A stretch of 62,176 nucleotides of DNA, the filler included, from Nemertoderma westbladi (Eukaryota; Animalia; Xenacoelomorpha): the NCBI GenBank assembly GCA_032718475.1. It is 3 parts of 3 records of this genome, joined end to end, with 100 filler letters (N's around TTAATTAATTAA, not from the genome) between each part and the next. Parts side by side here need not be neighbours in the genome. Positions count along the whole stretch, not along the records: positions 17,249 to 47,743 come from JAUCBJ010004697.1; 2 more parts are not named here. One strand, 5' to 3'. Every line of letters starts with the position of its first letter. The first letter of the stretch is position 1. Both the position numbers and the translations under genes were made by a program. The notes beneath the pieces were generated by a model. That model searched no databases. It was not told where the DNA came from and was given only the letters and a program-made list of their open reading frames with translations. Positions 1,396-58,863 of the stretch are shown here, piece after piece.

Positions 1396-1399
1396 AACT

Positions 1400-1565
1400 A
1401 TAAAAGTCTGCCTTTGAGTATAATTTATTATACTTTATATAGACTACATGTATACCAAGTTTTGTTCCATTTCATCAAAGATTGGCAGACTTATTAGCTT
1501 TCAAACATCTCCAATGATGGTGACGACGACAACGACAAGACAGGTCCACTAATTATAACCCTAAG
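1400..1565. mobile_element. Non-autonomous Helentron/DINE-like repeat fragment with (GAC)n
   Basis: Similar to 25160-25310 (TACCAAGTTT...TTCATCAAA...GACGACG...GGTCCACTAATTAT) and, inverted, to the interior of 7653-7982. Confidence 0.45.
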
Positions 1566-2030
1566 GCTCAATGGTATCGTCAAAGGGCAAGTGCAAGTTA
1601 TAGAAGTGATTTACTTTGATTTACATACAAGTTATTTACTGACTAATTCAATAATTTATAATTGGTGGGGTCTGAGTATTTAAGTTTTGATCATAGAAAT
1701 GAGAACTGATTGATTAAAAGAAATTAAATGGGGCGAGCTAAATTTCTCAAGCTCTGATCATAGAAAAGTAATCTTATTATTATTAAATGTCAATAACTAT
1801 ACTATATATCACGCATATAATGATGACCTCAGCTTTTTCGTTCATTGTGTGTCGTTGGCAATATTGGAGTAATCGGTATTATTTTAATTATATGTATTTC
1901 TCATCCTAGATTTGTCATTAAATATAACTAACAATACAAATTGACAGATTAAGTCTATATCTATATACGTGTGCCTTTATCTAAGGTGGAAGGGTAGCTA
2001 AAGCTTAATGACCCAGCCTACCAGGAGATC

Positions 2031-2363
2031 CACTACTACCAGCATGCCGCATTTGCAGCTTTATTATATATATTACATATATATTAAGAATGCTGTGCTG
2101 GAAGTACCGAAAAGAAAACTACCCTGGCCCATGCGATGATCGAACCCACAACCTACGCCAGATTTGAATTCAATGCAACCATTACACCAAGATGGGACCC
2201 TATCCCAGAGATTTGCTAGATCATCCGCATCTTCAAGGCCAGTGTCCTTTAAGAGGCGTCTAAGAAAGTCATGGGCTGTCCACCATGCTTATTCACTCCA
2301 TGGGGATGCTAAGCACAAGATTATACTCTGGCTGGTCCTCACAGCGAAAGCAATGTCCTGCAA
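2031..2363 (-). mobile_element. RTE-clade LINE 3' fragment (family A) interrupted by a tRNA-like insert
   Basis: ATTTGCTAGATCATCCGCATCTTCAAGGCCAGTGTCC is shared with the 4871-5405 and 47336-47743 copies; (TAC)n tail. Confidence 0.8.
2108..2200 (-). pseudogene. Degenerate tRNA-derived sequence (tRNA pseudogene or SINE head, Gln-like 5' end)
   Basis: Minus strand GGTCCCATCTTGGTGTAATGG (A box)...GGTTCGATC (B box)...ATGGGCCA followed by a TTTTCTTTT Pol III terminator; anticodon arm is not intact. Confidence 0.55.
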
Positions 2364-3649
2364 AAGGAAATCCAGCCTACCCAGAGGAGCAACTTGCAAA
2401 AAACGGAGGACATATGAATAATATGGACTAATACCACACAATTGAACTGTGGTAGCTCACATTCTGCTACATTAAAGGCCACTGACCGCAGCTGCAAACA
2501 ATTATTCTAATTTATCTTCCTATATGATGTAGAAGCAATCCAAATTTATCCTCATCAAATTATGTAACTACGAAGCACATAAAAATCGTTAAATAGTGGG
2601 TGGGATCTCTTATGCTGGAGCTTAGCATTGGTTGAACTACATACATTATAGTACATATTTAATACCCCCCCCCCCCCCCCCCCCCACATTTACATTTATT
2701 GTAGGAGTAGGTTATACCACTAGGTGGAAATACATTTTTGCACGTTATTTATTAAAAGGCACATAATTTATGATATATTTCACATATATTCATATTTTTT
2801 CAATCAACAATTATATTTCTCATCATAAATTCATGGTTGAATAGATATACTAATAGTTAGAGAATTATCAGAAACTCAAAAATAATAGACAGAGATTTAA
2901 TTTCACCATGCCTGCGCCTGGTGAATTATTATAATATATATATTGTTTTATATAAATAACATTATAGGTACAGTATAACCTGACTGGCAAAATATTAATA
3001 TAAACAATGAGGAACAAGCCTCCTATATCAAAAATGAAACCTACTTACAAATAAACACCATTATAACTGCACGAATAAACTATCCTAAATATTATAAAAA
3101 TATTTTAGTTTTTGTCCGCCTAAGGGTGTAAGCCTACATCGCATAATGAATTTAATAAATTTTCAGGATTTCAGGATTCAAACAATTTATTCAAACAGAA
3201 AACTGTCAAAATGAGTCAAAACGAGTTAATTTCCAAAAACTTTTTATTCTTGGAGTCAACTAAAAGTCCATCACTGGAAACTCAATGCTCTTAGCAGCTG
3301 TAGAGGAGTTGTCAAGGTCAAGGCAAGGTCTTGTGGGTCTCACTGATAAATCGCGAAAGTTTTTTGTGCAGAGGTAGCCCGCAGCGTATACTAAAGATAT
3401 AGGACGATGCATGTACTTCAGTACTGAATTCTCTAGGATTGCCATAAAATAAGAGGAAATTTTATCTCTAAGATTATATATAGTGAGTGTTCCCAATTTC
3501 CAATATCTGACCTATCTATCACTTTGTATGGCATAAACTATAAACTTTAATAAAAATATTTTATTTATTTGAAATATGACGATTATTAAAAAGTTTCCTA
3601 TCGAAATAATAGTATAATGAAGACAGGTGGTTAATGAAACACAAAAAGT

Positions 3650-4870: not shown

Positions 4871-5405
4871 TACTACTACTACTATTAGTTCCGGCTTGCT
4901 GCATTGCAGCTGCATTTTTAAGAATGCTGTGCCGGCTTGTCGACAAAATTGCGCCGCCACAACTCCCTATCACCAATGATATTTGCTAGATCATCCGCAT
5001 CTTCAAGGCCAGTGTCCTTTAAGATGCGTCTCAAGAAAGTCATGGGCTGTCCAGTCCACCATGCTTATTCACTCCATGAGGCTGCCAAAGTACAAGATTA
5101 TGCACTGGCTGGTCCTCACTGCGAAAGCAATGTCCTGCAAAGCGGAGGTGATTTTGTTCTAGTGTCAAGCTTGGGGAACCAATGAAACACCTCCAAAGGT
5201 ATTCGAAGGTCCTCACCTGACTTCCGGATCCATGATCCCAGGTAACAGAAGTCGTCCACATGCCCAAGCATACCATCCTTTGAGCTTATGCTCATCCGAT
5301 CAGAGACTTGCTGAGAACTTTCAAAGTTAACTGTCAAAATTTTGGTCTCTCCGGAGTTAATAAAAAGACCAACACTAGAAGCAGCATGTTCTAATGAGCT
5401 GAGGA
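4871..5405 (-). mobile_element. RTE-clade LINE 3' fragment (family A), internally deleted
   Basis: Minus-strand translation VGLFINSGETK...VDDFCYLGSWI...LRFAGHCFR...LVLWQPHG matches the RTE RT thumb and C-terminal domain; (TAG)n tail. Confidence 0.85.
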
Positions 5406-9090: not shown

Positions 9091-10107
9091 CTAAATTTCA
9101 TACACAAACTGCAAGTCTGTTCCCTCGAGGTAGGATTTCTCCCATTCTATAATTCTATCAACTTGTTCTTTTGTGAGAACAGTTTTCCAATCTCCTGTTT
9201 GGCCTTTTCTCATGAAGCCAACAGGTTCACTTGTCGCATTGGCACTTTGCAACTTTTCAATAAGGCTGTCTTTGTTAACCATGTTATTCTTTTTCATATT
9301 TTTAAAAGAAAGATGGTCGACAAGCAGAGAAACTTGAGATTCGCTCAGAGATTTATTGAGGAACTTTGAGGTTTTACGCACAACCCCCTGCAAATCTTGT
9401 TTCATCTCCTCATAAGTAATGAAGAGGATATTGTTCTTATCCCGGTTCTCCCAGTAACCAAGAACATGGCCGAGGAAAGGTGTGCAATAACCACAGACAT
9501 CACCAATGAAAGCATTAAAGAAAGTATCAAAAGACCCTCTAAAACCCTCCATAATTTTCCAGTGGTGGTAGTAAGACACACAAGCATCTCTGGGATTTCG
9601 TGCAACATAGATCAGTTTAACTTGTTTCTCCATGACCTGGCGTGGAAGCATGTCGAAGGAGAGGTGCGTTTTTATTATTCGTGGAGATGGAATTGATTCA
9701 GCAAGTTCTATAGAAGAATTATACTTTTTGGCATCGCTTACTGCTTCTTCATAAAAGTCATTGAAGTTGTCCTCCATGAGACCAGAGAGTTCCAGAAACG
9801 GAACCCGCTTTTCAAGGTCTACACTTTTAGCCACTTGAAAGTTAAGATCATTAACAATGTTCCATACCATCTCTTGGGTCCAAGTAGTACCACATTTTGG
9901 GAATGATGACACAAACACATCATCATCGTTAACTTTAAACTCGTTTAGTTCCTTTTCAAATCGCATGAAACACCTTGGGAGCACCTGTCCACTGGGCTGA
10001 AACCGCACAAACCCTTTTGGAAAGCAATCAAAACATTTCCAGAATTCTTGCAATGCATGATCCTTAATTTCTTCAGTGGTAACACCATCAGATAATTTGT
10101 AACTCAT
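9091..10107 (-). CDS. Cytosolic PAPS-dependent sulfotransferase (Sulfotransfer_1 family, 338 aa, intronless CDS)
   Basis: 5'-PSB loop SFPKCGTTW, catalytic IIKTHL, 3'-PB YVARNPRDACVSYYHH, YEEMK, and C-terminal FMRKGQTGDWK; full length and intact. Confidence 0.96.
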   Translation of the reverse strand: MSYKLSDGVTTEEIKDHALQEFWKCFDCFPKGFVRFQPSGQVLPRCFMRFEKELNEFKVNDDDVFVSSFPKCGTTWTQEMVWNIVNDLNFQVAKSVDLEKRVPFLELSGLMEDNFNDFYEEAVSDAKKYNSSIELAESIPSPRIIKTHLSFDMLPRQVMEKQVKLIYVARNPRDACVSYYHHWKIMEGFRGSFDTFFNAFIGDVCGYCTPFLGHVLGYWENRDKNNILFITYEEMKQDLQGVVRKTSKFLNKSLSESQVSLLVDHLSFKNMKKNNMVNKDSLIEKLQSANATSEPVGFMRKGQTGDWKTVLTKEQVDRIIEWEKSYLEGTDLQFVYEI

Positions 10108-11260
10108 TCTAAATTTGTATTTAAATAATTTGGTAAGTATACAAGTTTTGTGTTGTTAATTATAATTGATGGCTAAACTAATATTAATTATGGCTAAACA
10201 CTCTTGATTTTATTTAATGCAGCAACATAGTGATATCTTGCTTGTTATAATATATGGTTGCTAGGCTACTGTGATGGCCTGGAGCTGAAATCAATAATAC
10301 GACAACAAATTAACTCTTGAATTTTACATAATGTTACAAATACACTATACCGATTGACTAAAATGGTGAAATATAAATGATAGCATTCTAATATTTTTGT
10401 AAACAAATTAAGTCAATGTTATTCATAATATTGAGTCTTATGGAGCACAACTAAGACAATCCATCATTCTAATTGAACTTTGAATCGGCATTACTTTGCC
10501 AAACAATATATTTTAGCTGAGGCCTTCGCAAATAATAGATTATATTAATAATAATCGAGATTATACTAATAATAGATAATAGAATAATAGAATTGTAAGA
10601 GATTACAAATTGGAAAATATTATCTTTATTTCTGTGTAATTAATTTGAGCAATATGATTGAATGATAAATAATGACTGACAGTTTACTGACTACAATTTA
10701 AATAATGTACTATATCGTTATCATGCAAGCTACCGTATTAATTTACAAACACCAAATTTATGGTGGGATAAAAAATGTGTTTAATATAAATAATAAATAT
10801 ATTCAAATATTGTAACATAGAATAATTGAGATTATTATGTGACGACACTACTGTGAACGTAAATTAAAATATTAAGAACTTTGTTTATTGTGAATAAATG
10901 CTGCATGAGTGGCTCATTAGACACATGTTGCGCATTATTTTACTGTGGTAGTAATTGGACGTTCGTTGATAGGTGTGGTGCACTCGTGAGATATAACTAA
11001 CATAACATAGTTCCAGCTATACAATTGCACTAGTACCAGTTGTGTGGCCAACTTGTGCAGCCAGTAAGGTATATTCTAAATGAAAGTTGTATGACATTCA
11101 CTTCCGGTAAGGTGAAAAACATACTGAAATTATTGTACCCGAAAGAAAGATTAAAATGTTTAATTAAAATTTTGAAGAGAAACCAAACTAAGTACATTTT
11201 AGTAATATAAGATTTTCTCAGTAAACCAAAAAATCCAGTTCTGATCAACTGAGTTTGTTT

Positions 11261-14931: not shown

Positions 14932-16155
14932 ACTACTACTACTACTACTTCTAGGTCGAGCGAACTCGGATAGTGGAAATGAGATCCTTCCAGGCTTACC
15001 GATTCTCCATAGTTGTCGCAATTTCGTTTCTCCCAAGTTCAGTATCCCTTTCAAGTTGATCTATATATGTTATGGCCGGTCGTCCACGACTTCGCTTTCC
15101 ATGAGTTGGTTGCCAGAAAAGTAGATCTGGTATGACCTCGTCTTTACTTCGCCAGCAGTGCCCACTGAATCTTAATCTGCGTTCACGGAGGGTGGTTGAT
15201 ACAGGTGGTATTGTACCATAAAGCTCGGCGTTTGTCATGTGTTGTCTCCAGCTGGTGTTTAGGGCTGCCCTTGGTAGTCTTGTGTAGCAACCATCAATTC
15301 GTTGTTCAAGTGATTTAGTCAGTGTCCATGTCTCACCCCCGTATAAAAATACACTTTCCACTGTGGCTCGAAAGAACTTAGTCTTCAGGTGCCTGGAGAG
15401 ATCTGATTTCCAGATGGTATCCATTTTTGATAGAGCTACCCAAGCCTTTGCTTTCCTAACTTCTATGTCCTTTTTGCTACTCTCTATCCATGATCCAAGA
15501 TACTGGAAGTCATTGACCTTCCTTAGTTGATTATTATCAATGGTTGTCAAGTTTCCATCAACATTAAAGGTCATGAATTCGAGTCGAATGCCTTCTTGAA
15601 GTCCACAAAAGTCATGACAGCGGGGAGATTCTTTGACTTAATTCCTTCAATCAGTCTCCGTAGTGCAAGTATCTGAGCTATTGTTGATCTACTTGGTCGA
15701 AATCCGTTTTGGCTCTTACGCAGTAGTTTCTCTATGTGAGGCCTAATCCTATATAGAATCATTTTATTGTATATTTTGGCAGCTACCACAAGCAGACAGA
15801 TCCCACGATAGTTTGTTGGTATGCCGAGGTCTCCTTTCTTGGGGAGAGGCTTTAGTTGACCTTTAGTCCAAATTGGTGGTGGCTTTTCCCCTTTTAACAT
15901 CCGGTTGCAAACATTCAACAATGGTCTGTTTAGCACTCCGGTTTTCCATACCTCCGCTGGGATTTCATCTAATCCACTCGCTTTATTATTGGACATGCTT
16001 TTAATGCTTCTTTGGAGTTCGGCAGGTGTGAAGTCCCCTGTTTCTATAGGTAGTGTCTTGTCATATATTTTCCTTTTAGGGCTGACCTCTTTGTTTGGTG
16101 GCTGCCCAAGCAAGTTGCTGAAGTGATTTTTCCACTTCCCAACACGTTCTTCAGG
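14932..16155 (-). mobile_element. RTE-clade LINE (family B), 5'-truncated, RT core deleted
   Basis: ORF 15571-16113: KASGLDEIPAE, LPKKGDL..NYRGICL, QNGFRPSRST, FVDFKKAFDS. ORF 14996-15574: FQYLGS, LYGGETW, RRLRFSGHCWR, RGRP. (AGT)n tail at 14932-14949. No GVRQG or YADD between the two ORFs. Confidence 0.93.
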
Positions 16156-17040
16156 ACTTTCAGGATATTTCTGTACAGACAGACAGACACAGTGACCTCC
16201 AGTAATAATAAAAATAAAACATGTTCGCTAACGGTCCATACACTGACTTGTATCTGAATTCCGACATGTAGGCCTATCTAATTTTTTACATGTCAGCTTT
16301 GAAAAATATCGTAAAATATTATATTTGAAAAATCCCCCCCAAACACAGAAAATTCGCGGGTACGTATAATCCCCCCCCCCCCCCCTTTCTGGCTCTGGCC
16401 CCTCCTCTCGTGAATCTGGCTGCGCAACTGAATACAATTGTTTTATTATTTATACTTGGAACGTTGGGGATATTTATACCATGAATGCTTAAATTCATAT
16501 TTAAAATCCAATAGTTCTATTTCATTGGACAAATGATAATAAACCGTGTATAATTTGGCATAAAAACAAAGTTTCTAGGCAACAGAAAGTGACGGTTAGT
16601 TAATCAATCAATGAGATTAACAATGAGTATTAAGTATTAACGCCCAACATCATTCCCTTGAAAACGTCACGATCAGAGGATCTCTAATATCCAACATACA
16701 TCCGAATTTAATAATAAATAATAATAATGCTAAAATTCCAGGTAATTTATTTACAATAATTATATACAATTTATACAATATTTATAATATACAATTATAT
16801 AATAATTATAATATACAATTATTTAATCAATTTCAATCTGTTTCATTTTTAACATTGATGATTTGTTCTCGATACTTTATATATAGTTTATTAACAGGTT
16901 GAGTTAAAGTTTATTTAAGAAAAAAACATAAATCGAATGCATTACATGCCCTACAAGGCAGCCGTCTTCTCACATTATAGATGTCATCAGTTCGATTATA
17001 CCTGGACGTCATTGCCAAATTTGCTAAGCTATGCCCAACT

Positions 17041-20600: not shown

Positions 20601-23600
20601 CTCTCCCGCTACTGCGAGGAGATGCGCTCGCAACTCGTCGAGTTCTGCGTTCAGTTCATCTCGAGTTTGGAGTCGAGTTGGCACGCGTTCCCTCCCGCGC
20701 TACGGGCCGTCGTCGGTTGCCTCAACGAGGCGCTGCAGCGGAAGTTGGGGGCCTCCAGCACCGAGTCTCTCGCCTTCGTTATGTCGAGTTTAATCTGCCC
20801 CGCGATTATAAACCCCGAGCCCTACGGGGTCGTTATGGATATTTATATTACGGAGCGTTCCAGATTCAATCTCGTCCAGGTGAGAGCTGTTCGTATCTCT
20901 ATTTCTCTACCCGTTTAAGAGTTAACAATTTGGTCTTGAGTAAGTAAAGTAGTACTTTATATTTGCAGTACCTATATTCTAGAATACTGTATTACGGTAT
21001 TCTAGAATACTGAGCTGAGCAAGCCATTCTGACCAATAAAAATTTCCGGAGTAAAAATGTCGTGTGTAAAAATATCGAGTGTTGGAAAATATCGAGAGTA
21101 AAAATATCGAGAGTAAAAATATCGAGAATAAAAATATCGAGTGTTGAAAAATATCGAGAGTAAAAATCTCGATAGTAAAAATATCGAGAGTAAAAATATC
21201 GAGAGTAAAAATATCGAGAGTAAAATTATCGGGAGTAAAAATATCGGGAGTAAAAATATCGAGAGTAAAATTATCGGGAGTAAAAATATCGGGAGTAAAA
21301 ATATCGAGAGTAAAAATCTCGATAGTAAAAATCTCGATAGTAAAAATATCGAGAGTTAAAATATCGAGTGTTGAAAAATATCGGGAGTAAAAATATCGAG
21401 AGTAAAAATCTCGATAGTAAAAATCTCTATAGTAAAAATCTCGATAGTAAAAATCTCGATAGTAAAAATCTCGATAGTAAAAATATCGGGAGTAAAAATA
21501 TCGAGAGTAAAAATATCGAGTGTTGAAAAATATCGAGAGTAAAAATATCGAGAGTAAAAATATCGAGTGTTGAAAAATATCGAGAGTAAAAATATCGAGA
21601 CTAAAAATATCGAGAATAAAAATATCGAGTGTTGAAAAATATCGAAAGTAAAGATATCGAGTGTTGAAAAATCTCGAGAGTAAAAATCTCGATAGTAAAA
21701 ATCTCGATAGTAAAAATCTCGATAGTAAAAATCTCGATAGTAAAAATATCGAGAGTAAAAATATCGAGAGTAAAAATATCGAGTGTTGACAAATATCGAG
21801 AGTAAAAATATCGAGAGTAAAAATATCGAGAGTAAAAATATCGAGTGTTGAAAAATATCGGGAGTAAAAATATCGAGAGTAAAAATATCGAGAATAAAAA
21901 TATCGAGTGTTGAAAAATATCGAGAGTAAAAATATCGAGAGTAAAAATATCGAGAGTAAAAATATCGAGTGTTGAAAAATATCGGGAGTAAAAATATCGA
22001 GAGTAAAAATATCGAGAATAAAAATATCGAGTGTTGAAAAATATCGAGAGTAAAAATATCGAGAGTAAAAATCTCGATAGTAAAAATCTCGATAGTAAAA
22101 ATCTCGATAGAGAGTGGAAATATCGAGAGTGGAAATATCGAGAGTGGAAATATTGTGAACATTTAAAGGTGCGTTCACATAACGATGTGTATGTAAGCGT
22201 AGAAGCGATGCAAATTTCAATTAGTCGTTAGTCACTTTATATCCACACATGCACATACACATACATACGTTATGTAAAGGCACCTTTATATAAATGATCA
22301 TAATATTTTTATTCACAATATTTTTACTCTCGATATTTTTACTAGAAACTATCCTCCTAATCTTTAATATAAGATAAGTATTCATTCATATTAATTACAG
22401 AACCCTGGATATTATTTAAAACACTAATTTACGTACGGCCCCAGCAATAATTTTATATATTTCTCAACACTAATAACACTCAATATTTTTACGGTTCTCG
22501 ATATTTTTACTCTCGATATTTTTACTTTCGATATTTTTACTCTCGATATACTCGGGATATTTTTCAATGCTCGATATTTTGACTCAGCTCATATTGTAAC
22601 CCGGAGGAACCTCCGGGCTCCGGCTCCGGATGAAGTCTGGGATGGAGTACAAACAGGTCCCCCAAGAACTATGCCCGCCATTATACTTTTATTAATATAA
22701 TAAACACACATGGGTCAGAACACTGCTAATAAAACTTTATTATAAAAAAGTGAATTGAGGCATGCAAATTAATATTCGAAAATTTAAATATTGTCTTACA
22801 TCGTATGCGCAGGTAGACCAGGCCTGGATGTATACAATGTGGTTCTTTATACGACGGTTGACTTTTTAAGGCGGGTGATAAAGCCTTATATGACTGGTGC
22901 AGTAGCATTCATAGTACACTGTTAGCGATACACCCTGTGCAGATAGACCATCATTTACTTCGAGTTGAATTTTTATAAAGCTTTGAGCTAATTATTTTTC
23001 CCATGGCGATGATGATATTCGATAGGGACAACAGATTAAATGGCAAAATCGCTATAATAATGACGATTATCTATTCTGAGCCATTATTAATTCTAGAATG
23101 TTGTGCACACTGTGCACATTCTGCGGCTGTTGTGTCGGCATGACGGCATCCACCGGTCGATAATATGATATTAGGCCAACTAACAGCTGTACTTATCTAA
23201 TAACTTATACTAACTCCAATTATAGGCCAATTAACCTGTACTTATCTACTAACTTACACTAACTATAATAGGCCAACTAACCTGTACTTATCTACTAACT
23301 TATATTAACTTATAATAGGCCAACTAACCTGTACTTAATACTACACGTACACAGTGCTATACATCATATATAATAATAATACTACAGTGCACATAGTATA
23401 TACTGGGTTAGTGTTTTAATTGAAACCCATCGTAACCCCACTGCGACACCCACCCACCCTGTGGAATGCCAACCCAGGGTGTATGGTACCTGCTCCGAGA
23501 CCGGCTGAATGAAATCAACGTTGGATAACTATTTAAATCATTGTGGAAAAAGTGGAACTTTTCAACGTTTTGATCCGAGTTTATTATGTACCCAAGTGAG

Positions 23601-32600: not shown

Positions 32601-35600
32601 AGAAAGATGATGAAATCAACATTAGGAAATACATTCGAGCACGAACTATTTAAATGCTATTTATATTTATATACTTGCTGACTATTTACCATGGTCCTTC
32701 GGGTTTTACAATTAACATGTTCGCGTTATTTTCATTTATGTAGCGGGCATGTATTAATTTATTATAGGAAGGGATCTTGGGGTCTTAGCCTCGAATGATA
32801 AGTTTATTTTACCGAAAATAACCGAAACAATTTTAACGAAAAAATACTCCATATCTCAAGAACCTTTGGCCTAGTGGTTGTAGTCTCGGCTTCCACCTCG
32901 AGGTCCCAGGTTCGAATCCGACACCACGCTGATGAGACCCAGTAAGGTCGAAACGCGTACGTGGTTTGGAGAGATATGAGATATTAATTTCAAGAAAAAA
33001 TTACGCGATTCCTAAATTTGTACACTACCCGGTTAAAAAGTACGCATGTGATGGGATTAGTCCTACAATTGCGCCAATAAAAGATAAGTTATTTTCGGTA
33101 AAATAAACTTATCATTCGAGGCTAAGACCCCAAGATCCCTTCCTATAATAAATGTATAATAACAAACACCTCGAAAAATACAGCTTGCCAACACATTGTT
33201 ACTATCAATAATATATTAATTTAATAAACTCTATGAATATGAAAATTCTAAAACGACCAGCGGACCATATAACCACAATTCTGAAATCCGAAACCCCCCA
33301 AAACTCATGTGCAGTTTTCCATTAATCTGACAATAAAATGTGTTTCTCTGGCTATAAAGGCCTCCTGAAGTTCAAAGAATTGAATTATTTGGCTTCAGGT
33401 AGAGTTCCTGACAGCCTAGGGGCAACTTCTGTGCTTCTGACTAAGGACCCCGCGAAGCAACGGCACTATTCCTGAGCGGTGCGCTGGTCGGTGTATATAA
33501 GTACGAGCCTGAAAATGATTCTGAGAGTATTCTGACTAAGGGTGCTGTGAAGGATAGGCCCTAGGGACAAACCCCGAGCGGTGCAACCAGCAACCGGACG
33601 CAACCACCGCGGACTATACAGACAGCGCGGTCGGCGTTGAATGGAGCCACTACGAGCCTGAAAGGGACTCATGACTGAAGCCACTCTACCCTCGCCAGTC
33701 ACGACTGACACAGACCGGACAGACGGGGTATTAAAAGAGAAAACCGAAAAGCCGGGAATATAACAATAGTTAATGATGCCACAGCCACATTCCAGGGAGA
33801 ATCCTTAAACAGCCAGTTGAACACTGGGCCCAACATATACGGTACGCTGGTAGGCGTATTGTTACGATTCCGCGAGAAAAAGGTCACATTCACATGTGAC
33901 ATTAAAGCGATGTTCCATCGGTTCGGGGGGTAGAATGGGACATTCCGGATGACATATTCCTGTTCAAATATACCCACGTTAATAGACACCTGACGAAAGG
34001 GATGTCTATCCGTGAAAAGCTCAATCTTTGTTTCATCCATTTGCATTTCCATGCAATCCATTTGTTTCATTTCACCCGTAATTCTGGCCGAGATGAATCT
34101 AATCAAGGAAATGTGGATCAATGGACTAGGATGGAATCATGAGTTACCCGAGTTATCGGTATTGCGAAAAAAAAAATGGGAGGTATGGGTAAATAACTTG
34201 GAACAGTTGAAACTCACGAGAGATCCACGCCCATGTTTCCGGACAAACGACCGGGTGATATCTCTCAGCTACACATTTTCTCAAATGCGTCGAACACCGG
34301 GATAGGAGTTACTTGTCACATATCTACGGACGATCGACGAGGATGGCTAGATCGATATAAGTTTTGTATTTGCTAAAGCCAAAACATTGTCGGGAGAGTT
34401 CGTAGCAACGGTACTGAGACTGGAGATTCAAGTGACTGTATGGGCCGGTCGTCAGAACCGATTGATCCTCAGGGAGCTTCCGATCACGATCCAGTCGGAA
34501 CATTTCCGGGTAAATTCCAGCATCGTACTCTACTACCTCCACTTACAATCCCGACGACACACGACGTTTGTAGCGAACCGTGCCTCAGGGATTAAACAAT
34601 AATGCACGGACAGAGAACAGTGGCACCATGTCGCAGGAAAACAGAACCCCGTAGACATCGCTAGCTGTCGAGCTACCCCACATCAATTGTAAAATTAATA
34701 GCCAGCTTGGAAGGCAAGTTTGGAAGGGCTGGAATTCCTCAGACAAGCCCATCTAAGATAGAGTGTTTTCGGAACAAGACAGTGGGAAGTATACCGAAGA
34801 TGACAAACAGATCCGGAAAGTTAAGGGAGCAAAGACCATGGATATCTATATAGTTGTCTGACCGAGACTGCAAAGGACTCGAGCAGGTACTATACAATAC
34901 ACTGTCCAGCGCCAGTCCCTGATAATACGCCCCTACACTGAAAAAAGTAAGTGGTGGTATTTTGTTAAAAAACTGCCGGTTTGCAAGAACTACCTGGGGT
35001 TGTTTTGCAACGAAAACCACCGCAGGTTGTTTTTACAAACCGGCGGTAAATAGACATTGCCAAGAACTGGCAGTTGTGCAAACCGGGGGTTGATTATCTC
35101 TCGTAAAACCGGCGGTTCCATAACCCCCAGTTGTTTAGAACCTAAAATTGCATTGTAAAACCTCTGGTATTTTATATCGCAAGGAACTGCCGGTTCCTCA
35201 GTTTCTGGTTTAACGCAAATTCCCGGTCGAATATTTAATCGGCATTTATTAACCTATGGTTTACTGCTGGTAACTGGCGTTTCAACTATTTAAAACTGCC
35301 GGTTTTCTCAAAAAACCACAGGTAAAACGGCAACCAAATAAACCAGTTTTTACGAAACCGCCGTTTAATTAACAGTCAACTGGCGGTTTTATTTGAGAAA
35401 ACTGGCGGTAATTTTAATAAACTGAGGCTTTAATTTATTTATAACCTATGGTTATAAAAGAAAAACCCACGGTTAAAACGTACTAACCTGTGGTTATAAA
35501 GAGCAAAAAAAACCTATAAACCTGAAAATAATGTTTGGTTAGGAGCACAGGACATGTACGGCACACATGAAGCTCAATGTTACAACATGGATATATTGGG

Positions 35601-38600
35601 AGAGGGGGGTGAAAGCCTACCTTATCTAATCCCTACATCCTACCCTACGCTTACGGCCTATGGCCAATGCATACAATTAATACGCTTCATACATATTGGA
35701 TTGGATACACACGGCTAAGTATATAGGAAAATATTTAATTCATTTAGATTTATGGATATCCTAATTAATTCTAGTTGATGATCAACAAATAGTGTTTTGA
35801 TTATTAATTTTAATATCATTTGTCTTCTTTTCAGCCATATTAGATAATTCATTTCAATTAATTTATATAAATTAATTAATTTTAACCAAGTTTAATTAAT
35901 AATTTAAAATTATGTTTTGATTTATATATATTTACTTTTTATATTTACATATACAAACTGGCAGTTATTAGTTTGTAAATCTGTGTGTGGTTCAATGATA
36001 AACTGGCAGTTATTATTGTAAATCTGTGGTTCTGTGATAAACTGGCAGTCATTAATGTAAATCTGTGGTTCTGTGATAAACTGGCAGTCATTATTGTAAA
36101 TCTGTGGTTCTGTGATAAACTGGCAGTCATTAATGTAAATCTGTGGTTCTGTGATAAACTGGCAGTCATTATTGTAAATCTATGGTTCTGTGATAAACTG
36201 GCAGTTATTATTGTAAATCTGTGCTTCTGTGATAAACTGGCAGTCATTATTGTAAATCTATGGTTCTGTGATAAACTGGCAGTTATTATTGTAAATCTGT
36301 GCTTCTGTGATAAACTGGCAGTCATTGTAAATCTGTGGTTCTGTGATAAACTGGCAGTCATTAATGTAAATCTGTGCTTCTGTGATAAACTGGCAGTCAT
36401 TGTAAATCTGTGGTTCTGTGATAAACTGGCAGTCATTAATGTAAATCTGTGGTTCTGTGATAAACTGGCAGTCATTATTGTAAATCTATGGTTCTGTGAT
36501 AAACTGGCAGTTATTATTGTAAATCTGTGGTTCTGTGATAAACTGGCAGTCATTATTGTAAATCTGTGGTTCTGTGATAAACTGGCAGTCATTAATGTAA
36601 ATCTGTGGTTCTGTGATAAACTGGCAGTCATTGTAAATCTGTGGTTCTGTGATAAACTAAGAACCGACAGTTTGAATATAAGACCACCATTTTTACATTT
36701 CATAAAAACCGCCGGTTTGAAAACTACGTACGTGTTTATTAACAAGAACCGATAGTTTGAATATAAGACCACCATTTTTACATTTCATAAAAACCGCCGG
36801 TTTGAAAACTACGTACGTGTTTATTAACAAGAACCGATAGTTTGAATATAAGACCACCATTTTTACATTTCATAAAAACCGCCGGTTTGAAAACTACGTA
36901 CGTGTTTATTTACACGAACCGACAGTTTGAATATAAGACCACCATTTTTACATTTCATAAAAACTGCCGGTTTGAAAACTACATACGTGTTTATTAACAA
37001 GAACCGACAGTTTGAATATAAGACCACCATTTTTACATTTCATAAAAACCGCCGGTTTGAAAACTACATACGTGTTTATTAACAAGAACCGATAGTTTGA
37101 ATATAAGACCACCATTTTTACATTTTATAAAAACCGCCGGTTTGAAAACTACGTACGTGTTTATTAACAAGAACCAACAGTTTGAAAATAAAACCGCCAT
37201 TTTTACATTTCATAAAAACCGCAGGTTTGAAAATTATATGTTTTCATCAATAAGAACCGCCAGTTTGAAAATTTAATAACCACCTTTTTAATACAACCGT
37301 CACTTTCTATGCAAAATTCCGCAATGACTACAGGTTTCGTTTCAGGTAATATAACAAATATATCTTAAACCGCCGGTTTAATATCGTAACCGGAGGTTAC
37401 TACCAGCCATTTTTGTATGATCCATACTAACCCCCGGTTTACCAATCACTACCGCAAGTACCTATCCATAACCAATGGTTAAAAAATCGACCGGCACTTA
37501 CTTTTTTCAGTGTACATTAGTTCATCGAACAAAGTTCATCTATGAATAAACTCATAATTACGTACTGATGCTTAGGAACTTCATGAGATGAAAATTCAGC
37601 GTTCTGATTGTAAAGCATAGTATCCACATCCAGGAACTAGGAACGACACGACTGACACAGCCGGACAGACCGGGGTATCAAACGTAGTTGGGGTGGTTAT
37701 AATCCTTTAAAGTAAAGTCAGTAGTCCTATAAAGTAAATACTTAACTGTCATTCTGTTCTGTAGGTTTATTATATCTCGTGAATAGTTGGTATTTATTAT
37801 TGTTGTGAGGAAGCCCATATATTTAGAATCAGATTACTTATAGGAATAGACCACTTATAGGAACAGATCACGTAGGAGTAAATTCATTGGTGTAACAGAT
37901 CACTTACTGCGTAAAGAATGTCTGTTTGTAAAGAATAAATTTGATATCCAACCAACATGTACTTTTTGTGATCTGCATGACATATCCCGGTTCTCCCCAC
38001 ACGCAGTAATACCGGTGACTAGTATTTGGGGATTTGGTGACCTTCCTCAGATCTTACATCGGCGTCCATCCCTGGCACCACAGCACTACTAGTAGTAGTA
38101 GTCCTGTGGTGCCAGGGTTGACGGCAACAAAACAGGTTTTGAAAAATTTAATTATTTTATTTTTGCTATTTCATTTTTCAGGAGTCTTAAACCGCGTGGT
38201 CCCGTACACCTACCATCTCGCAGCATTTCCGCGGCATTCCAATCCGGTCTGTCTCGAACTAAACCGGAGCGGCCCCCGCTACCGTCCGCCGCGTTGCTAA
38301 GGAAGCCGCCGGCGGACGACGCCGACGTAAAGCCCGACACCGGCGAGGATATTATGGAGAAATACGAGAAGAAAGTTCGCAACTCGATGGTTGCGGAAAC
38401 TCCGGATGTTGTACCTCGAGGTTCGGTTTCCGTCGCCGGTTCCTCCATAACGACCTACCCCCCGTCGTCGACGAGCGGAACCGGCGGGACCACATCCCCG
38501 CTTCTCGACCCCGACGGTAACCATGGAGAGTCGCTTAGCAACGCCGTGGACAAGGAGCGTTGCTATAGCGCCAACTCGGCGCGTTTAATCGGCGACGCGA

Positions 38601-47335: not shown

Positions 47336-47743
47336 ATACTACTACTAGGATCGGCATGCTGCATTGTAGCTGCATTTTTAAGAATGCTGTGCCGGCTTGT
47401 CGACAAAATTGCGCCGCCACAACTTCCTATCACCCATGACATTTGCTAGATCATCCGCATCTTCAAGGCCAGTGTCCTTTAAGATGCGTCTCAAGAAAGT
47501 CATGGGCTGTCCACCACGCTTATTTACTCCATGAGGCTGCCAAAGTATAAGATTATGCACTGGCTAGTCCTTACGGCGAAAGCAATGTCCTGCAAAGCGG
47601 AGGCGATTTTGTTCTAGTGTCAAGCATAGGGGAACCAATGAGACACCTCCAATGTTATATAGTTTCTGGTTGGAGTTGTGTGCATTGTACTTGACACAAT
47701 GAACCCGGCGTAGCATTCTTGTGAATGTGCCATCCAGAGATTT
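47336..47743 (-). mobile_element. RTE family A 3' fragment running into the gap
   Basis: LILWQPHGVNKRGGQPMTFLRRILKDTGLEDADDLANVMGDRKLWR; (TAG)n tail. Confidence 0.88.
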
Positions 47744-47843: not shown

Positions 47844-50530
47844 AGAAACATGCTTTCAATGTCTGAGGCAAAGACGATGGAGTACTGCTGGAGTCAGTAA
47901 TATTCCCAACAGCGATTGGAGTAAGTTGGGTCCTGGCAACAACTCTGAGTTCAGGGACTGTCCTTTTTATAAGGCGGAGCCGTCAAACATTACCTGGACT
48001 TCGTTGGGTTTACCGGGTTTGGGAACGTAGTGGTGAGTTAGATAATACATTCTCTCCGTAACGGGTGTTTCTATAAGAACTCGCTCAGTATATCCCTTAT
48101 CAATGAACTTCTTTGATAGAATCTTGTACATTTCCTTAGCTTTATTGTTCGAAGATAAGTGTTGGTGTAGCTGTTTGATTCTTTTGATGGCTAATGGTCG
48201 ATTATTAATGAAGCTGGGCTCTCAGTTCTGGAAGAATTATATCGCTCCACTACCTCGTTCAGCTCGTCATCTTCATAGGCCAACAACTCGTTGTTCTGCT
48301 GTATCAGATGACACAATTCGGTTTGATTAATCCAGGCTTGATTCTTGGTGAGGGGTTCTATTGTATTGTCCTCCTCATACAATAACTGAATATCATCATT
48401 ATCTGAGGAGCATGTAGTTTCCTCAGTTGAGATAGTCTCATCATCCACGGGGTCTATATTCTCACTCACCTGCTTATGTAGATATTCTCAGTTCTTTCCT
48501 TCAGGGTTTGCTGAGATCGTCCCATGAAGTACCAGCATACTCTAGTTTGTCCCGCGTAGGTTTGTAGAGTTCGCGGTCGAGTGGATCTCTTTTCCAGCAT
48601 CTCTAGCGCCACATGCGCATTCTGGTCGAGTAACATCTGGACTCCAGGAGACTCAGTCTTAAATCTGGGAACTTTATACGGTTGTGCAAAACTGTCCTCG
48701 TCCCAGTTATAAGGTTCTACTTGACAGGTGGCAAAGTTCTTAATAGCTACCATCTTGATAGACCTTATACTATCTTTACCTGATTTATCTTGTGATCCCA
48801 AGTGACACTACGCCTGTCTTTGAGGTTTTTCCTCAGGAATTCCTCACACTTACTTAAATAGTGTGGCCCTTCGCATAACACACACTTAGGTTTAATATTA
48901 GTTACCTTTGGTTGGTCTGTGTTCTGTACACGAGTTCTTTCTTCGGGCTTCTTACCAGGAATCCTCTTGGGTGACATTGGAGGAGCCGTGAGTTGTTCTC
49001 TCCTGTGGTTGTTAGGCCGAACCTTGGGATTTCCCATGTCCTTACCTTTACTTGTATAATATACGTCGGCAGTATCTTGGCCGCTATCCTCATCGTATGA
49101 GGTTTGACTCTCATACTCGGTGTAACATACAGGAGTTACTCTTTTCCTAGCAACTGGTTTCTCACTTACCTTAGTTTTAGGAGTCTTCTTTCTATACTGT
49201 TTAATAAGCTGCAATCTTACCTCTCCTGACAGGAATGTAGTAAGGTCTGCCATTATGGGATCTCTACCATGCTGGTATGCAAAGTATAAAACCTTCTTGT
49301 CCCAACGAGTTCCTACTCCACCTTTTGGCAAAGAAGCAGCTACAGCTCCTTCTACCATAGAAATTTGGTACTTGTGAGATTTATCTAACCAGTCTAACTG
49401 TCTACAGATCTCCTGAATCTTATCGGAAAACTCTATGATTCCGTTGCTAGGGAATCTCGTGGGTGCTTCTAATTTCGCATACAAGTATCTAGCCATGTTA
49501 GTCCTAATACCATACCTGATATTGAGGGTATCCCAGACTTGTCTTAATCTGTCAGGATGTCCGATGAACTTTAACGCCATCAATTTGGGAGGACCTTCCA
49601 AGCACGCGATGAGGAATCGTAACTTTTCTCCATTTGATAATACAGAATTTTGTATATTATCATTATAATATTCATTAAAAGGTAGCCACTTCAACTCATC
49701 TCCATTAAACTTCACGACCTCTCCCACCTTTACGGCTTTCGTTCTAGCCATCTGACGCGTAAAACTCTCCTGAGCCATCGTAGTATTCAATATCGAATTA
49801 TCCGAATATATATTTCTTGGATTATTTACAGGCACATATGGGATATCATTATATGTTGGTCTATTAATATGATTAGTATGGTTTGCTATAGGAGTTTCCA
49901 CTTCACTAGCAATATAGATGGATGTATGCTCTACACCTGGCGCTTAAATGCAGTTGCAGGGGGTGGTTGTATACCCATTTCTATGTTCACTAAATTATCG
50001 CTTTCTAGGGCCATATGTTGCTATACTTCTTTCAACTCAATTTTAATATCTCATACTGTTCCCTTCAGTGAGTTGACAGTACCTTCCAAATCCCTCAACT
50101 GATCCACAGACCGGGATCCCTTGTGGGCCAACTGCCTGAGCAGATCGCCCATCTCCCGCCACCCCTCCTCCATCCACTCCACTGCTTGTGCTGGAGCCAC
50201 CAATGGAGTGGCTAGTGGTTGGCCCATCGGGACGACGGGAGACAATCCCGGTCCGAACGACTTGCGTTCTCCTATTTTAATGCCAGTCTTGGATTCTGGG
50301 ATTTGACTACTGGTTAAGAGAGGATTAGTACTTTCTAAATGGAACTTAGAATCGGGTTATATCAGTAAAGGAGTCTCCACTAAGGGAGTAGACTTAATAA
50401 AGGCCTAATAATTTCAGGCTCATCTAGAATATTGGGAAGCCTATCAGATTCAACTACCTGGGTTATTAACTCGCCAGACTGTAGATCCGTGCTAGCAAAG
50501 TGTCTTCTCACTGGAGGGGGCAAGTTGGGT
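47844..50530 (-). mobile_element. Bel/Pao LTR retrotransposon gag remnant
   Basis: ORF 48765-49901: KFNGDELKWLPF...LSNGEKLRFLIACLEGPP...L..RYG (DUF1759-type gag) and CVLCEGPHYLSKCEEF knuckle; flanking frameshifted ORFs on the same strand. Confidence 0.85.
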
Positions 50531-50811: not shown

Positions 50812-53800
50812 CATTTCTTCGCGATATTCACGATCTTCGCAAACGTCGCAATTTTTGCGAAGATTGTGAAAATCACGAAATTTTGCAAACATCGCGATTT
50901 TTGCGAAGATTGTGAAAATCGCGAAATTTCGCAAACGTTGTGATCCTCGCGATATTTTGTGTTTACCAATACTATAATAGGTGGAGCTTCGCAAATGTCG
51001 CGATCTTCACGACATATTTTGTGTTTACCAATACTATAATAGGTGGAGCTTCGCAAATGTCGCGATCTTCGCGACATATTTTCTGTTTACCAATACTATA
51101 GGTGGAGGTTCGCAAACGTCGCGATCTTCACGACATATTTTGTGTTTACCAATACTATAGGTGGAGCTTCGCAAACGTCACGATATTTGCAATATTTTGT
51201 GTTTACCAATACTATAGGTGGAGCTTCGCAAACATCACGATCTTTGCGATTTTTTGTGTTTACCAATACTATAGGTGGAGCTTCACAAACGTCGCGATCT
51301 TCACGACATATTTTGTGTTTACCAATACTATAATAGGTGGAGCTTCGCAAATGTCGCGATCTTCGCGACATATTTTCTGTTTACCAATACTATAGGTGGA
51401 GCTTCGCAAACGTCGCGATCTTCACGACATATTTTGTGTTTACCAATACTATAGGTGGAGCTTCGCAAACGTCACGATATTTGCAATATTTTGTGTTTAC
51501 CAATACTATAGGTGGAGCTTCGCAAACATCACGATCTTTGCGATTTTTTGTGTTTACCAATACTATAGGTGGAGCTTCACAAACGTCGCGATCTTCACGA
51601 CATATTTTGTGTTTACCAATACTATAGGTGGAGCTTCGCAAACGTCACGATATTTGCGATATTTTGTGTTTACCAATACTATAGGTGGAGCTTCGCAAAC
51701 ATCACGATCTTTGCGATTTTTTGTGTTTACCAATACTATAGGAGGAGCTTTGCAAACGTCGCGATCTTCGTGATATTTTCTGTTTACCAATACTATAGGT
51801 GGTACTTCACAAACGTCGCGATCTTCGTGATATTTTGTGTTTACCAATACTATAGGTGGTACTTCACAAACGTCGCGTCGCGATTTTTTGTGTTTACCAA
51901 TACTATAGGTGGAGCTTTGCAAACGTCGCGATCTTCGTGATATTTTCTGTTTACCAATACTATAGGTGGTACTTCACAAACGTCGCGTCGCGATTTTTTG
52001 TGTTTACCAATACTATAGGTGGAGCTTTGCAAACGTAGCGATCTTCGTGATATTTTGTGTTTACCAATACTGTAGGTGGAGCTTCGCAAACGTCGCGATC
52101 TTCGCGATATTTTGTGTTTACCAATACTATAGGTGGAGCTTCGCAAACGTCGCAATCTTCACAACATATTTTGTGTTTACCAATACTATAGGTGGAGCTT
52201 TGCAAATGTCGCGATCTTCGTGATATTTTCTGTTTACCAATACTATAGGTGGAGCTTTGCAAATGTCGCGATATTTACGATATTTTGTGTTTACCAATAC
52301 TATAGGTGGAGCTTCGCAAATGTCGCGATCTTCGCGATATTTTGTGATTACCAATACTATAGGTGGAGCTTCGCAAACGTCACGATCTTCACGACATATT
52401 TTGTGTTTACCAATACTATAGGTAGAGCTTCGCAAACGTCGCGATCTTTGCGATATTTTGTGTTTACCAATACTATAGGTGGAGCTTTGCAAACGTCGCG
52501 ATCTTCGTGGCATATTTTGTGTTTACCAATACTATAGGTGGAGCTTCGCAAACGTCGCGATCTTTGCGATATTTTGTGTTTACCAATACTATAGGTAGAG
52601 CTTTGCAAATGTCGCGATATTTACGATATTTTGTGTTTACCAATACTATAGGTGGAGCTTCGCAAATGTCGCGATCTTCGCGATATTTTGTTATTACCAA
52701 TACTATAGGTGGAGCTTCGCAAACGTCACGATCTTCACGACATATTTTGTGTTTACCAATACTATAGGTGGAGCTTCGCAAACGTCGCGATCTTTGCGAT
52801 ATTTTGTGTTTACCAATACTATAGGTGGAGCTTTGCAAACGTCGCGATATTTACGATATTTTGTGTTTACCAATACTATAGGTGGAGCTTCGCAAACGTC
52901 GCGATCTTTTGTGTTTACCAATACTATAGGTGGAGCTTCGCAAACGTCGCGATCTTCGTGGCATATTTTGTGTTTACCAATACTATAGGTGGAGCTTCGC
53001 AAACGTCACGATATTTGCAATATTTTGTGTTTACCAATACTATAGGTGGAGCTTCGCAAACATCACGATCTTTGCGATATTTTGTGTTTACCAATACTAT
53101 AGGTGGAGCTTCGCAAACGTCGCGATCTTTTGTGTTTACAAATACTATAGGTGGAGCTTCACAAACGTCGCGATCTTCACGACATATTTTGTGTTTACCA
53201 ATACTATAATAGGTGGAGCTTCGCAAATGTCGCGATCTTCGCGACATATTTTCTGTTTACCAATACTATAGGTGGAGCTTCGCAAACGTCGCGATCTTCG
53301 CGACATATTTTGTGTTTACCAATACTATAATAGGTGGAGCTTCGCAAATGTCGCGATCTTCGCGACATATTTTCTGTTTACCAATACTATAGGTGGAGCT
53401 TCGCAAACGTCGCGATCTTCACGACATATTTTGTGTTTACCAATACTATAGGTGGAGCTTCGCAAACGTCACGATATTTGTAATATTTTGTGTTTACCAA
53501 TACTATAGGTGGAGCTTCGCAAACATCACGATCTTTGCGATTTTTTGTGTTTACCAATACTATAGGTGGAGCTTCGCAAACGTCGCGATCTTCGCGATAT
53601 TTTGTGTTTACCAATACTATAGGTGGAGCTTCACAAACGTCGCCATCTTCGCGATATTTTGTGTTTACCAATACTATAGGTGGAGCTTCGATAAAGAAAT
53701 TTCTCAACCTTTAATAATATTATTTATTAATACCATTATAGGTACAGCGACGCAAAATTAGCAAAATTTCTGGAAGGCCTACACGAATATACGGACTTCT

Positions 53801-58441: not shown

Positions 58442-58863
58442 ATGCAGTCACATGCTCATGCATGTGCCTGGACGGCACATTCACAAGAATGCTACGCCGG
58501 GTTCATTTTGTCAAGATCAATGCACACATCTCCAACCAGACACTATATAACATTGGAGGTGTCTCATTGGTTCCCCCAAGCTTGACACTAGAACAAAATC
58601 ACCTCCACTTTGCAGGACATTGCTTTCGCCATGAGAACCAGCCAGTGCATAATCTTGTACTTTGGCAGCCTCATGGAGTGAATAAGCATGGTGGACAGCC
58701 CATTACGTTCTTGAGACGCATCTTAAAGGACACTGGCCATGAAGATGCGGATGATCTAGCAAATGTCATGGGTGATAGGGAGTTGTGGCGGTGCAATTTT
58801 GTCAATAAGCCGGCACAGCATTCTTAAAAATGGAGCTGCAATGCAGCATGCCAATCCTAGTAA
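58442..58863 (+). mobile_element. RTE family A 5'-truncated copy with an 8-bp TSD
   Basis: LHFAGHCFRHENQPVHNLVLWQPHG...; GCTCATAC at 58434-58441 and 58864-58871. Confidence 0.85.

What the first reader, a model, noticed from the sequence alone, without database searches (positions are those of the whole stretch)
32757..33153. tRNA-promoter + hammerhead ribozyme cassette wrapped in perfect inverted repeats
Seen: Pol III A/B boxes (32867-32919) are followed 3 nt later by a complete minimal hammerhead (ACCACG CTGATGA GACC-cagtaa-GGTC GAAA CGCG TA CGTGGT). An extra helix (CATATCTC at 32850 / GAGATATG at 32971) brackets the module, and all of it lies inside ~65-bp perfect inverted ends, which implies a young insertion. 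Established: minimal hammerheads with a palindromic stem III are typical of Penelope-like element pLTRs and non-LTR retrozymes, and tRNA-promoter plus hammerhead repeats are known (Schistosoma SM-alpha). Inference: this is either a Penelope-mobilised self-cleaving SINE/retrozyme whose 3' end was copied as an inverted 5' flank, or a MITE that captured one. It may be an undescribed self-processing, possibly circular-RNA-forming, mobile RNA family.
Basis: partly seen in the sequence, partly recalled or inferred. Interest (0 to 1): 0.88.

Follow-up and report, generated by a model that had tools for sequence, protein, structure and literature searches.

The report
Penelope-mobilised tRNA-promoter hammerhead retrozyme
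This is one recently inserted copy of a very abundant ~410-base non-coding repeat of an animal that joins a tRNA-type promoter to a predicted self-cutting hammerhead RNA; its inverted end is not a DNA-transposon end but likely the footprint of a Penelope retrotransposon enzyme that copied the RNA from both sides of the cut, a design already known from blood flukes.

Summary
In detail: A/B boxes, a type I hammerhead (cut site after 32959), the bracket helix and a 66-bp perfect inverted repeat are all present. The MITE reading fails. In public runs of this organism the repeated unit is 32843-33213, 60 bp past the right 'TIR', at about 10^4 times the summed depth of the flanks. Other copies end at about 33148, 33161 or 33211-13, invert at other breakpoints, and close head-to-tail through a 39-41-nt spacer (a 411-nt unit). 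A 10-bp AT-rich direct repeat flanks this insertion; the true inverted arm is 61 bp and stops at the 33148 end cluster. Inverted 5' copy, one-sided tail and an 8-10-bp target duplication are Penelope-like (PLE) hallmarks. Best reading: a non-autonomous, PLE-mobilised non-LTR retrozyme with its own Pol III promoter, built like Schistosoma Sm-alpha. Cleavage, Pol III transcription, circles and the partner PLE are untested. An unrelated metagenome contig has the same anatomy, and this scan noted similar elements in other genomes. It is a new member of a known kind, useful because it puts PLE insertion signatures on an Sm-alpha-type element.

The parts
32752..32761 (+). Left copy of a 10-bp AT-rich target-site duplication (TATTAATTTA); its last 5 nt (32757-32761) are also complementary to element 33149-33153 (possible priming microhomology)
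   Evidence: identical to 33214-33223; match of 10 or more in 22 of 20000 shuffles and 4 of 1053 anchored AT-rich control windows; empty site not seen
32762..32822 (-). Inverted, 5'-truncated, tail-less second copy = exact reverse complement of 33088-33148
   Evidence: 61 of 61; outer end equals the end cluster at 33148; junction contig at depth 11.5 (X1 record 1)
32823..32842 (.). 20-nt junction filler resembling slipped copies of the end of the inverted arm
   Evidence: sequence; depth 0 at 32823-32835 in 4 of 4 runs once the arm is left out of the stretch; slippage origin inferred
32843..33213 (+). Forward copy, 371 nt of a ~411-nt unit (lacks the 39-41-nt spacer)
   Evidence: depth plateau and loose ends; X4 record 17; X2 joint 33213->32843
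32844..32857 (+). 5' strand of the bracket helix (pairs with 32971-32984)
   Evidence: pair probability 0.99-1.0 for 32851-32857
32860..32922 (+). tRNA-derived head: A box 32867-32877, B box 32909-32919 (predicted type 2 Pol III promoter)
   Evidence: local score 57 against 121 tRNAs vs at most 49 in 50 shuffles; not called a tRNA by ARAGORN or Rfam
32923..32965 (+). Type I hammerhead; palindromic helix III 32953-32958; predicted cut between 32959 and 32960; predicted to need a dimer
32971..32984 (+). 3' strand of the bracket helix
33083..33113 (+). Hairpin holding the only T4 run (33092); the inner breakpoint of the inversion (33088) lies in it
33115..33175 (+). Predicted stem (33115-21/33169-75) round an A/C-rich loop that holds the short-end clusters 33148 and 33160-62 (inferred RT start sites)
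33149..33213 (+). 'Tail' present at the right end only; long-end cluster 33211-33213
33214..33223 (+). Right copy of the 10-bp target-site duplication, directly after the family's end

Best explanation
The locus is one young insertion of a high-copy, non-coding ~411-nt repeat family with a tRNA-type promoter and a type I hammerhead (an Sm-alpha-like non-LTR retrozyme), likely copied into the genome by the enzyme of an autonomous Penelope-like element. Shown: family ends, head-to-tail closure, variable inversions, flanking 10-bp direct repeat. Inferred cycle: (1) Pol III reads tandem copies from the A/B boxes, with some read-through of the T4 at 33092. (2) Two hammerheads pair through the palindromic helix III and cut out unit-length RNA starting at 32960. 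(3) Stem I plus the bracket helix hold its two ends together, so a host ligase would close a circle. (4) A PLE RT/GIY-YIG protein nicks both strands of an AT-rich site 10 bp apart; one 3' end primes at RNA position 33213 (forward copy with tail), the other at 33148 (inverted tail-less copy). (5) The two cDNAs are joined through a 20-nt slipped filler. Copying across the unit junction would let new copies take the promoter and its upstream spacer along.
For: Ends: unique-flank loose ends at 33211-33213 (X1 11 and 19 contigs, X2 15 and 24, 14 of 481 rows shown) and at 33148 (5, 5, 7 contigs in X1, X2, X3) and 33160-62 (24 of 602 rows shown). This copy's inverted arm stops at 33148 once the duplication is set aside. 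Inversions elsewhere: 3 opposite-strand joints among 15 of 37 shown; 4 arm-to-body joints at other breakpoints (tables 5 and 5c). Closure: X2 joint 33213->32843 over 39 nt; X4 record 17 is 441 nt with 30-nt overlapping ends, i.e. a closed 411-nt unit; loose letters before 32843 agree at 0.89-0.99 in X2 and X3 and match the spacer. No ORF: stops in all three + frames, longest 56 aa. Dimer fold -31.7 vs 2 x -11.7 kcal/mol, with helix III formed between molecules. A diverged relative in run X7 keeps 32903-32982 (1 difference in 80) and 33138-33178 (5 in 41), loses ~155 nt between at the 80% threshold, and its 8 located head substitutions (of 11) all fall between the A and B boxes. Literature: inverted 5' copy and one-sided tail (PMC8557442 passages); inverted pLTR with tail and 8-10-bp TSD (PMC3846280 passages); both strands cut and extended, two internal RT starts in an AC-rich stem-loop (PMC11167929 parts 1-2 of 4).
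Against: No partner PLE was found: no genome is held and none of 12 window ORFs scanned has a GIY-YIG domain. The tail here is 52-65 nt against 30-40 nt in described PLEs. The empty site was not among the joints shown, so the TSD rests on the direct repeat alone. A T4 at 33092 lies upstream of both inferred RT starts, and T4 runs are not depleted (1 observed; 0 or 1 in 1155 of 2000 shuffles). A transcript started at 32858 is predicted to misfold stem I, whereas one started at 32852 folds it. Within the family, the 10 sites varying at 1% or more in X1-X3 miss the boxes and ribozyme, but that is not significant (about 0.13 by chance, my arithmetic). Only 1 of 9 Xenopus retrozyme dimers cleaved in vitro (bioRxiv 10.64898/2026.07.22.740005), and hammerhead cutting was not needed for PAc insertion in vitro. 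PAc starts RT without target homology, while a 5-nt match is seen here.
Confidence: 0.78

Rival explanations
1. The unit is the pseudo-LTR of an autonomous PLE that has taken up a tRNA promoter, and this locus is a solo, 5'-truncated pLTR insertion, not a separate non-autonomous family.
For: All insertion hallmarks are the same in both readings. PLE insertions are often very short through 5' truncation (PMC9977147 passages). An ATG at 33152 opens 19 codons in the tail.
Against: The only recurring continuation seen after 33213 leads through 39-41 nt back to the head, and one record closes on itself at 411 nt. The 19-codon frame stops at 33209. No long ORF-bearing continuation is among the rows shown, but most rows were not shown.
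Confidence: 0.12
2. An ordinary LINE-mobilised tRNA SINE that carries a hammerhead, inverted here by L1-type twin priming.
For: tRNA head, dispersed copies, a TSD; RT-bearing LINE fragments lie in the window.
Against: No poly(A) or simple-repeat tail; three internal 3'-end clusters; 33088-33148 is present twice instead of being inverted in place; head-to-tail closure.
Confidence: 0.05
3. A satellite-like repeat spread at the DNA level (unequal exchange or circular DNA); ribozyme and promoter are passengers and the inversion is a repair product.
For: Tandem closure is seen in a DNA run. The slipped filler resembles end-joining repair (inference).
Against: Many copies share sharp 3' ends followed by unrelated flanks; boxes and ribozyme are kept in a diverged relative while the spacers change.
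Confidence: 0.03
4. A MITE with ~65-bp terminal inverted repeats that captured a tRNA-hammerhead module.
For: A 66-bp perfect inverted repeat.
Against: The family runs 60 bp past the right arm at full depth; the left junction is single-copy; inversion breakpoints differ between copies; the direct repeat flanks 33213, not 33153.
Confidence: 0.01

Closest known systems
Sm-alpha / Sj-alpha SINE-like hammerhead retroposons of Schistosoma (PMC6765202 passages; PMC2770079 passages; Ferbeyre 1998 itself not held)
   Same: tRNA-derived Pol III promoter followed by a hammerhead; tandem and dispersed copies; very high copy number; cleavage would leave the promoter at the 3' end of the monomer.
   Different: Different sequence and host. 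The passages read name no mobilising element and no inverted or tailed insertions for Sm-alpha; here PLE-type ends are seen. Activity is shown for Sm-alpha and only predicted here.
Metazoan non-LTR retrozymes (PMC7229834 passages and part 4 of 6; PMC7761336 passages; bioRxiv 10.64898/2026.07.22.740005 parts 1-3 of 5)
   Same: 150-450-bp non-coding unit, GC under 50%, type I hammerhead, tandem plus monomer copies, TSD longer than 4 bp, PLE origin proposed.
   Different: The review says retrozymes do not seem to carry promoters or a motif that points to their partner; this family has A/B boxes and PLE-type end clusters. Circular RNA is not shown here.
Penelope-like elements: Adineta Pen2a, Poseidon_Ac, Naiad/Chlamys
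   Same: Inverted 5'-truncated copy, tail at one end only, 8-10-bp AT-rich TSD, several internal RT starts in an AC-rich stem-loop, hammerhead upstream of them.
   Different: No RT or GIY-YIG ORF; Pol III-type boxes instead of a TATA/Inr promoter; longer tail (52-65 nt).

Membership tests
Type I hammerhead ribozyme | Conserved core with helices I, II and III and an NUH cut site | tested here: met
   below the Rfam gathering score; helix III is only 2 bp with a 2-nt loop as a monomer
Type I hammerhead ribozyme | Self-cleavage | not testable with these tools
   dimer fold favoured by about 8 kcal/mol; no assay
Non-LTR retrozyme | Non-coding 150-450-nt unit with a type I hammerhead | tested here: met
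   411-nt unit, GC 0.39, no ORF over 56 aa on +
Non-LTR retrozyme | Head-to-tail tandem copies | tested here: met
   X2 joint 33213->32843 and X4 closed record; two consecutive whole units on one contig were not seen
Non-LTR retrozyme | Expressed as linear and circular monomer RNA | tested here: inconclusive
   X4 is RNA by guess only; a closed contig cannot tell a circle from a tandem array
tRNA-derived SINE (Sm-alpha type) | A and B boxes at tRNA spacing, tRNA-like head | tested here: met
   boxes spared in the X7 relative
tRNA-derived SINE (Sm-alpha type) | Pol III transcription | not testable with these tools
   no raw RNA reads listed
tRNA-derived SINE (LINE-mobilised) | Single 3' end with poly(A) or simple-repeat tail | tested here: not met
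   three end clusters, no such tail
PLE-mobilised element | Inverted 5'-truncated copy with variable inner breakpoint | tested here: met
PLE-mobilised element | Tail at one end only; more than one internal 3' end | tested here: met
   ends 33148, 33160-62, 33211-13; tail longer than the described 30-40 nt
PLE-mobilised element | Short AT-rich target duplication | tested here: met
   10 bp; one locus only, empty site not seen
PLE-mobilised element | 3' region shared with an autonomous RT + GIY-YIG element | not testable with these tools
   no genome held
Autonomous PLE | RT and GIY-YIG ORF | tested here: not met
MITE | Fixed terminal inverted repeats that bound the family | tested here: not met

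The most novel reading that the evidence does not exclude
A self-sufficient circular-RNA SINE: Pol III makes it from its own tRNA promoter, dimeric hammerheads cut it, the bracket helix clamps the ends into a 411-nt circle (the closed X4 record being that circle), and a Penelope RT dimer copies it from both target strands at two internal starts. That would explain both how Sm-alpha-type elements keep their promoter and how PLE inverted ends arise, and the same head-plus-hammerhead design would have arisen repeatedly in animals.
Probability: 0.35. Interest if true: 0.7.

Novelty: new member of a known kind. Interest (0 to 1): 0.48.

Why it matters
Which reverse transcriptase moves animal hammerhead repeats has been argued from co-occurrence and sequence likeness. 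This family shows the insertion footprint of Penelope-like elements directly on a promoter-bearing, Sm-alpha-type repeat. Being young and very abundant, it offers hundreds of junctions in one genome to test two open points: whether PLE inverted ends come from priming on both target strands at two internal RNA sites, and whether the template is a circle or a tandem transcript. It also warns annotators that such copies look like MITEs.

Tried and rejected
No whole genome is held, so copy counting, empty-site search and the search for a partner PLE were not possible. No RNA holder listed. Rfam at gathering threshold: 0 matches in the window. ARAGORN: no tRNA; relaxed thresholds gave only a minus-strand call that I treat as spurious. 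No second copy in the window. Family-specific pattern in viral contigs: 0. General B-box + core pattern: 70 viral, 9 metagenome and 1 genome locus; 7 of these 80 hold a type I descriptor and only L078 has the palindromic helix III; BLAST of the element against the 79 loci then held gave one 22-nt hit. T4 depletion: not seen. The active monomer fold could not be scored (2-nt loop). The permuted-monomer fold used N for the spacer, so it leaves the spacer's own pairing open. I first read X7 record 20 as tandem; it is collinear (corrected). Summed contig depth is not a copy number; I use it only for order of magnitude. Covariation was not counted because other copies are not held as loci. Two primary papers (Ferbeyre 1998, Lunse 2017) are not held; PMC10886601, PMC3531059 and PMC8490949 (passages) added nothing on the mechanism. 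Supplements were not read; those of the 2026 preprint and PMC7229834 may list related families. The host species was not determined.

Full report
Observation. A full type I descriptor hits once in the window and never in 60 shuffles. Rfam HH9 gives 26.6 bits, E 5.1e-5, under its gathering score. The module folds at z -3.31. The head is tRNA-like (score 57 against 121 phage and bacterial tRNAs, at most 49 in 50 shuffles) but is not a tRNA gene. With helix I of 6 bp, helix II of 4 bp and a short palindromic helix III it is the canonical metazoan type I form that needs a second copy (PMC4209133 passages). Co-folding gives the intermolecular helix III at -31.7 against 2 x -11.7 kcal/mol.

Context. 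The window is animal DNA. RasGAP (20106) and VPS9 (43845) ORFs lie on the + strand on either side, so the element is likely intronic and in sense in a GAPVD1-like gene (name recalled). No genome is held and the window has no second copy, so I used public runs (7 of 8 listed runs hold part of the stretch; 6 were laid).

True boundaries. Summed contig depth is 1.7-5.8 x 10^5 (X1) and 4.6-8.2 x 10^5 (X2) over 32847-33197, against 11-39 in the flanks. This is not a copy number, but 1127-3020 contigs were laid per run in X1-X3, so the family is very abundant; most contigs are 95% or more alike, so it is young. It runs 60 bp past the right arm. Contigs leave it for unrelated flanks at 33211-33213 (14 of 481 loose-end rows shown). 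With that end left out of the stretch, further clusters appear at 33148 (5, 5, 7 contigs in X1-X3) and 33160-62 (24 of 602 rows shown). Upstream of 32843 other copies share a constant sequence, so this copy is 5'-truncated. That sequence is the end of a spacer: X2 has a joint 33213->32843 over 39 nt, and the only record laid from X4 is 441 nt with ends overlapping by 30 nt, a closed unit of 411 nt. X4 is RNA by guess only and comes from another organism label, so circle, tandem DNA or carry-over cannot be told apart.

The inverted arm. Its junction contig has single-copy depth (11.5). Other copies switch strand elsewhere: 3 opposite-strand joints among 15 of 37 shown and 4 arm-to-body joints (read as strand switches by inference). 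A 10-bp direct repeat sits at 32752-32761 and 33214-33223, starting exactly after the family's end; a match this long arose in 22 of 20000 shuffles, 5 of 234 unanchored and 4 of 1053 anchored AT-rich controls. Its left copy overlaps the outer 5 bp of the 'TIR', so the copied arm is 32762-32822, the reverse complement of 33088-33148, and ends at the 33148 cluster. Both arms carry the same two minority variants (33122, 33132; family majority differs in 80-90% of depth), which fits one source but is weak alone because the variants are probably linked. A 20-nt filler resembling slipped copies of the arm end joins the two pieces. This rules out a MITE.

Mechanism. PLE insertions carry an inverted 5'-truncated copy and a tail at one end (PMC8557442 passages), with 8-10-bp AT-rich duplications in Adineta (PMC3846280 passages). 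The purified anole PLE protein cuts and extends both target strands and starts RT at two internal sites in an AC-rich stem-loop (PMC11167929 parts 1-2 of 4). Here the short ends lie in an A/C-rich loop closed by 33115-21/33169-75. I infer nicks 10 bp apart, one strand primed at 33213 and the other at 33148, helped by a 5-nt match. That gives head-to-head copies from a sense template; Arkhipova 2013 proposed self-priming on an antisense template instead. A search for Penelope with 'twin priming' listed 3 papers, none on PLEs by title (listing only). In the monomer that cleavage would release, stem I and the bracket helix pair the two ends with probabilities mostly above 0.85 (spacer as N), which would favour ligation as shown for other retrozymes with RtcB (PMC7229834 part 4 of 6). 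A relative in run X7 keeps the ribozyme region (1 difference in 80) and the RT-start region (5 in 41), loses the part between, and has its 8 located head substitutions between the boxes, which points to selection on all three modules.

Against or open. No partner PLE, no RNA data and no empty site. A T4 lies before the RT starts and T4 runs are not depleted. The tail is longer than described. Variant sites within the family miss the functional motifs but not significantly. Most tested Xenopus dimers did not cleave. One X6 record carries five ribozyme-region substitutions, so dead copies exist. The solo-pLTR reading cannot be excluded, because most table rows were not shown.

Comparison and novelty. 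Sm-alpha already joins a Pol III promoter to a hammerhead in tandem and dispersed copies, and retrozymes have been tied to PLE pLTRs. One unrelated metagenome contig, L078, has the same A box, B box and palindromic type I hammerhead order (1 of 80 pattern loci). This scan noted similar elements in other genomes; none matched this sequence. Searches (10, 38, 75 and 1 papers; others listed; mostly listings seen) showed no report of a tRNA-headed hammerhead element with PLE insertion hallmarks, but the library lacks most subscription journals and repeat databases. Verdict: a new member of a known kind with unusually direct evidence for PLE mobilisation; interest 0.48.

Noticed in passing
L078 (Ga0307474_10214395), minus strand, core at about 834: Unrelated element with A box, B box and a type I hammerhead with an 8-nt palindromic helix III (dimer -38.3 vs 2 x -14.9 kcal/mol), followed by a 157-nt direct repeat; the contig ends overlap by 127 nt, so it is closed or tandem.
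   Followed up: partly
L002, L045, L047, L048, L050 (also L005), viral contigs: Type I hammerheads with a full helix III a few bases after tRNA-like T arms in phage contigs (6 of 70 loci meet the descriptor); possible tRNA 3'-trailer ribozymes.
   Followed up: no
window 32860-32865 / 32908-32913 and the L078 head: In both families the bases upstream of the A box are predicted to pair with the B box, folding the head as one long hairpin instead of a cloverleaf.
   Followed up: no
run X6 on window 32823-33200: Loci at single-copy depth in X1-X3 range from about 25 to over 1000 in X6, unlike whole-genome DNA; the library may be RNA or reduced-representation. Unexplained.
   Followed up: no
window 32890-32896 and run X7: The anticodon-like loop reads TCC here and TTC in the X7 relative, suggesting a Gly/Glu-class tRNA origin (assignment recalled).
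   Followed up: no
window 33066-33151 in runs X2, X3: An 84-nt internal-deletion subfamily at depth 1838 and 4313, tens of times single-copy depth, lacks the hairpin and short-end region but keeps the tail.
   Followed up: no
window 33700-34600 and 48765-49943: BEL/Pao-like LTR retrotransposon remnants (DUF1759 hit for the second; first recognised from recalled motifs, no Pfam hit).
   Followed up: partly
window 9091-10155 (-): Intronless sulfotransferase ORF (PF00685, E 4e-74).
   Followed up: partly
window 4877-5202, 14996-16227, 47337-47737, 58468-58862: LINE-like fragments (RVT_1 at 15574-16227); three 3'-end-like copies are 92-93% alike.
   Followed up: no
window 21037-22153, 35955-37269, 50928-53690: Long intronic minisatellite arrays (15, 39/85 and 57-nt units).
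   Followed up: no
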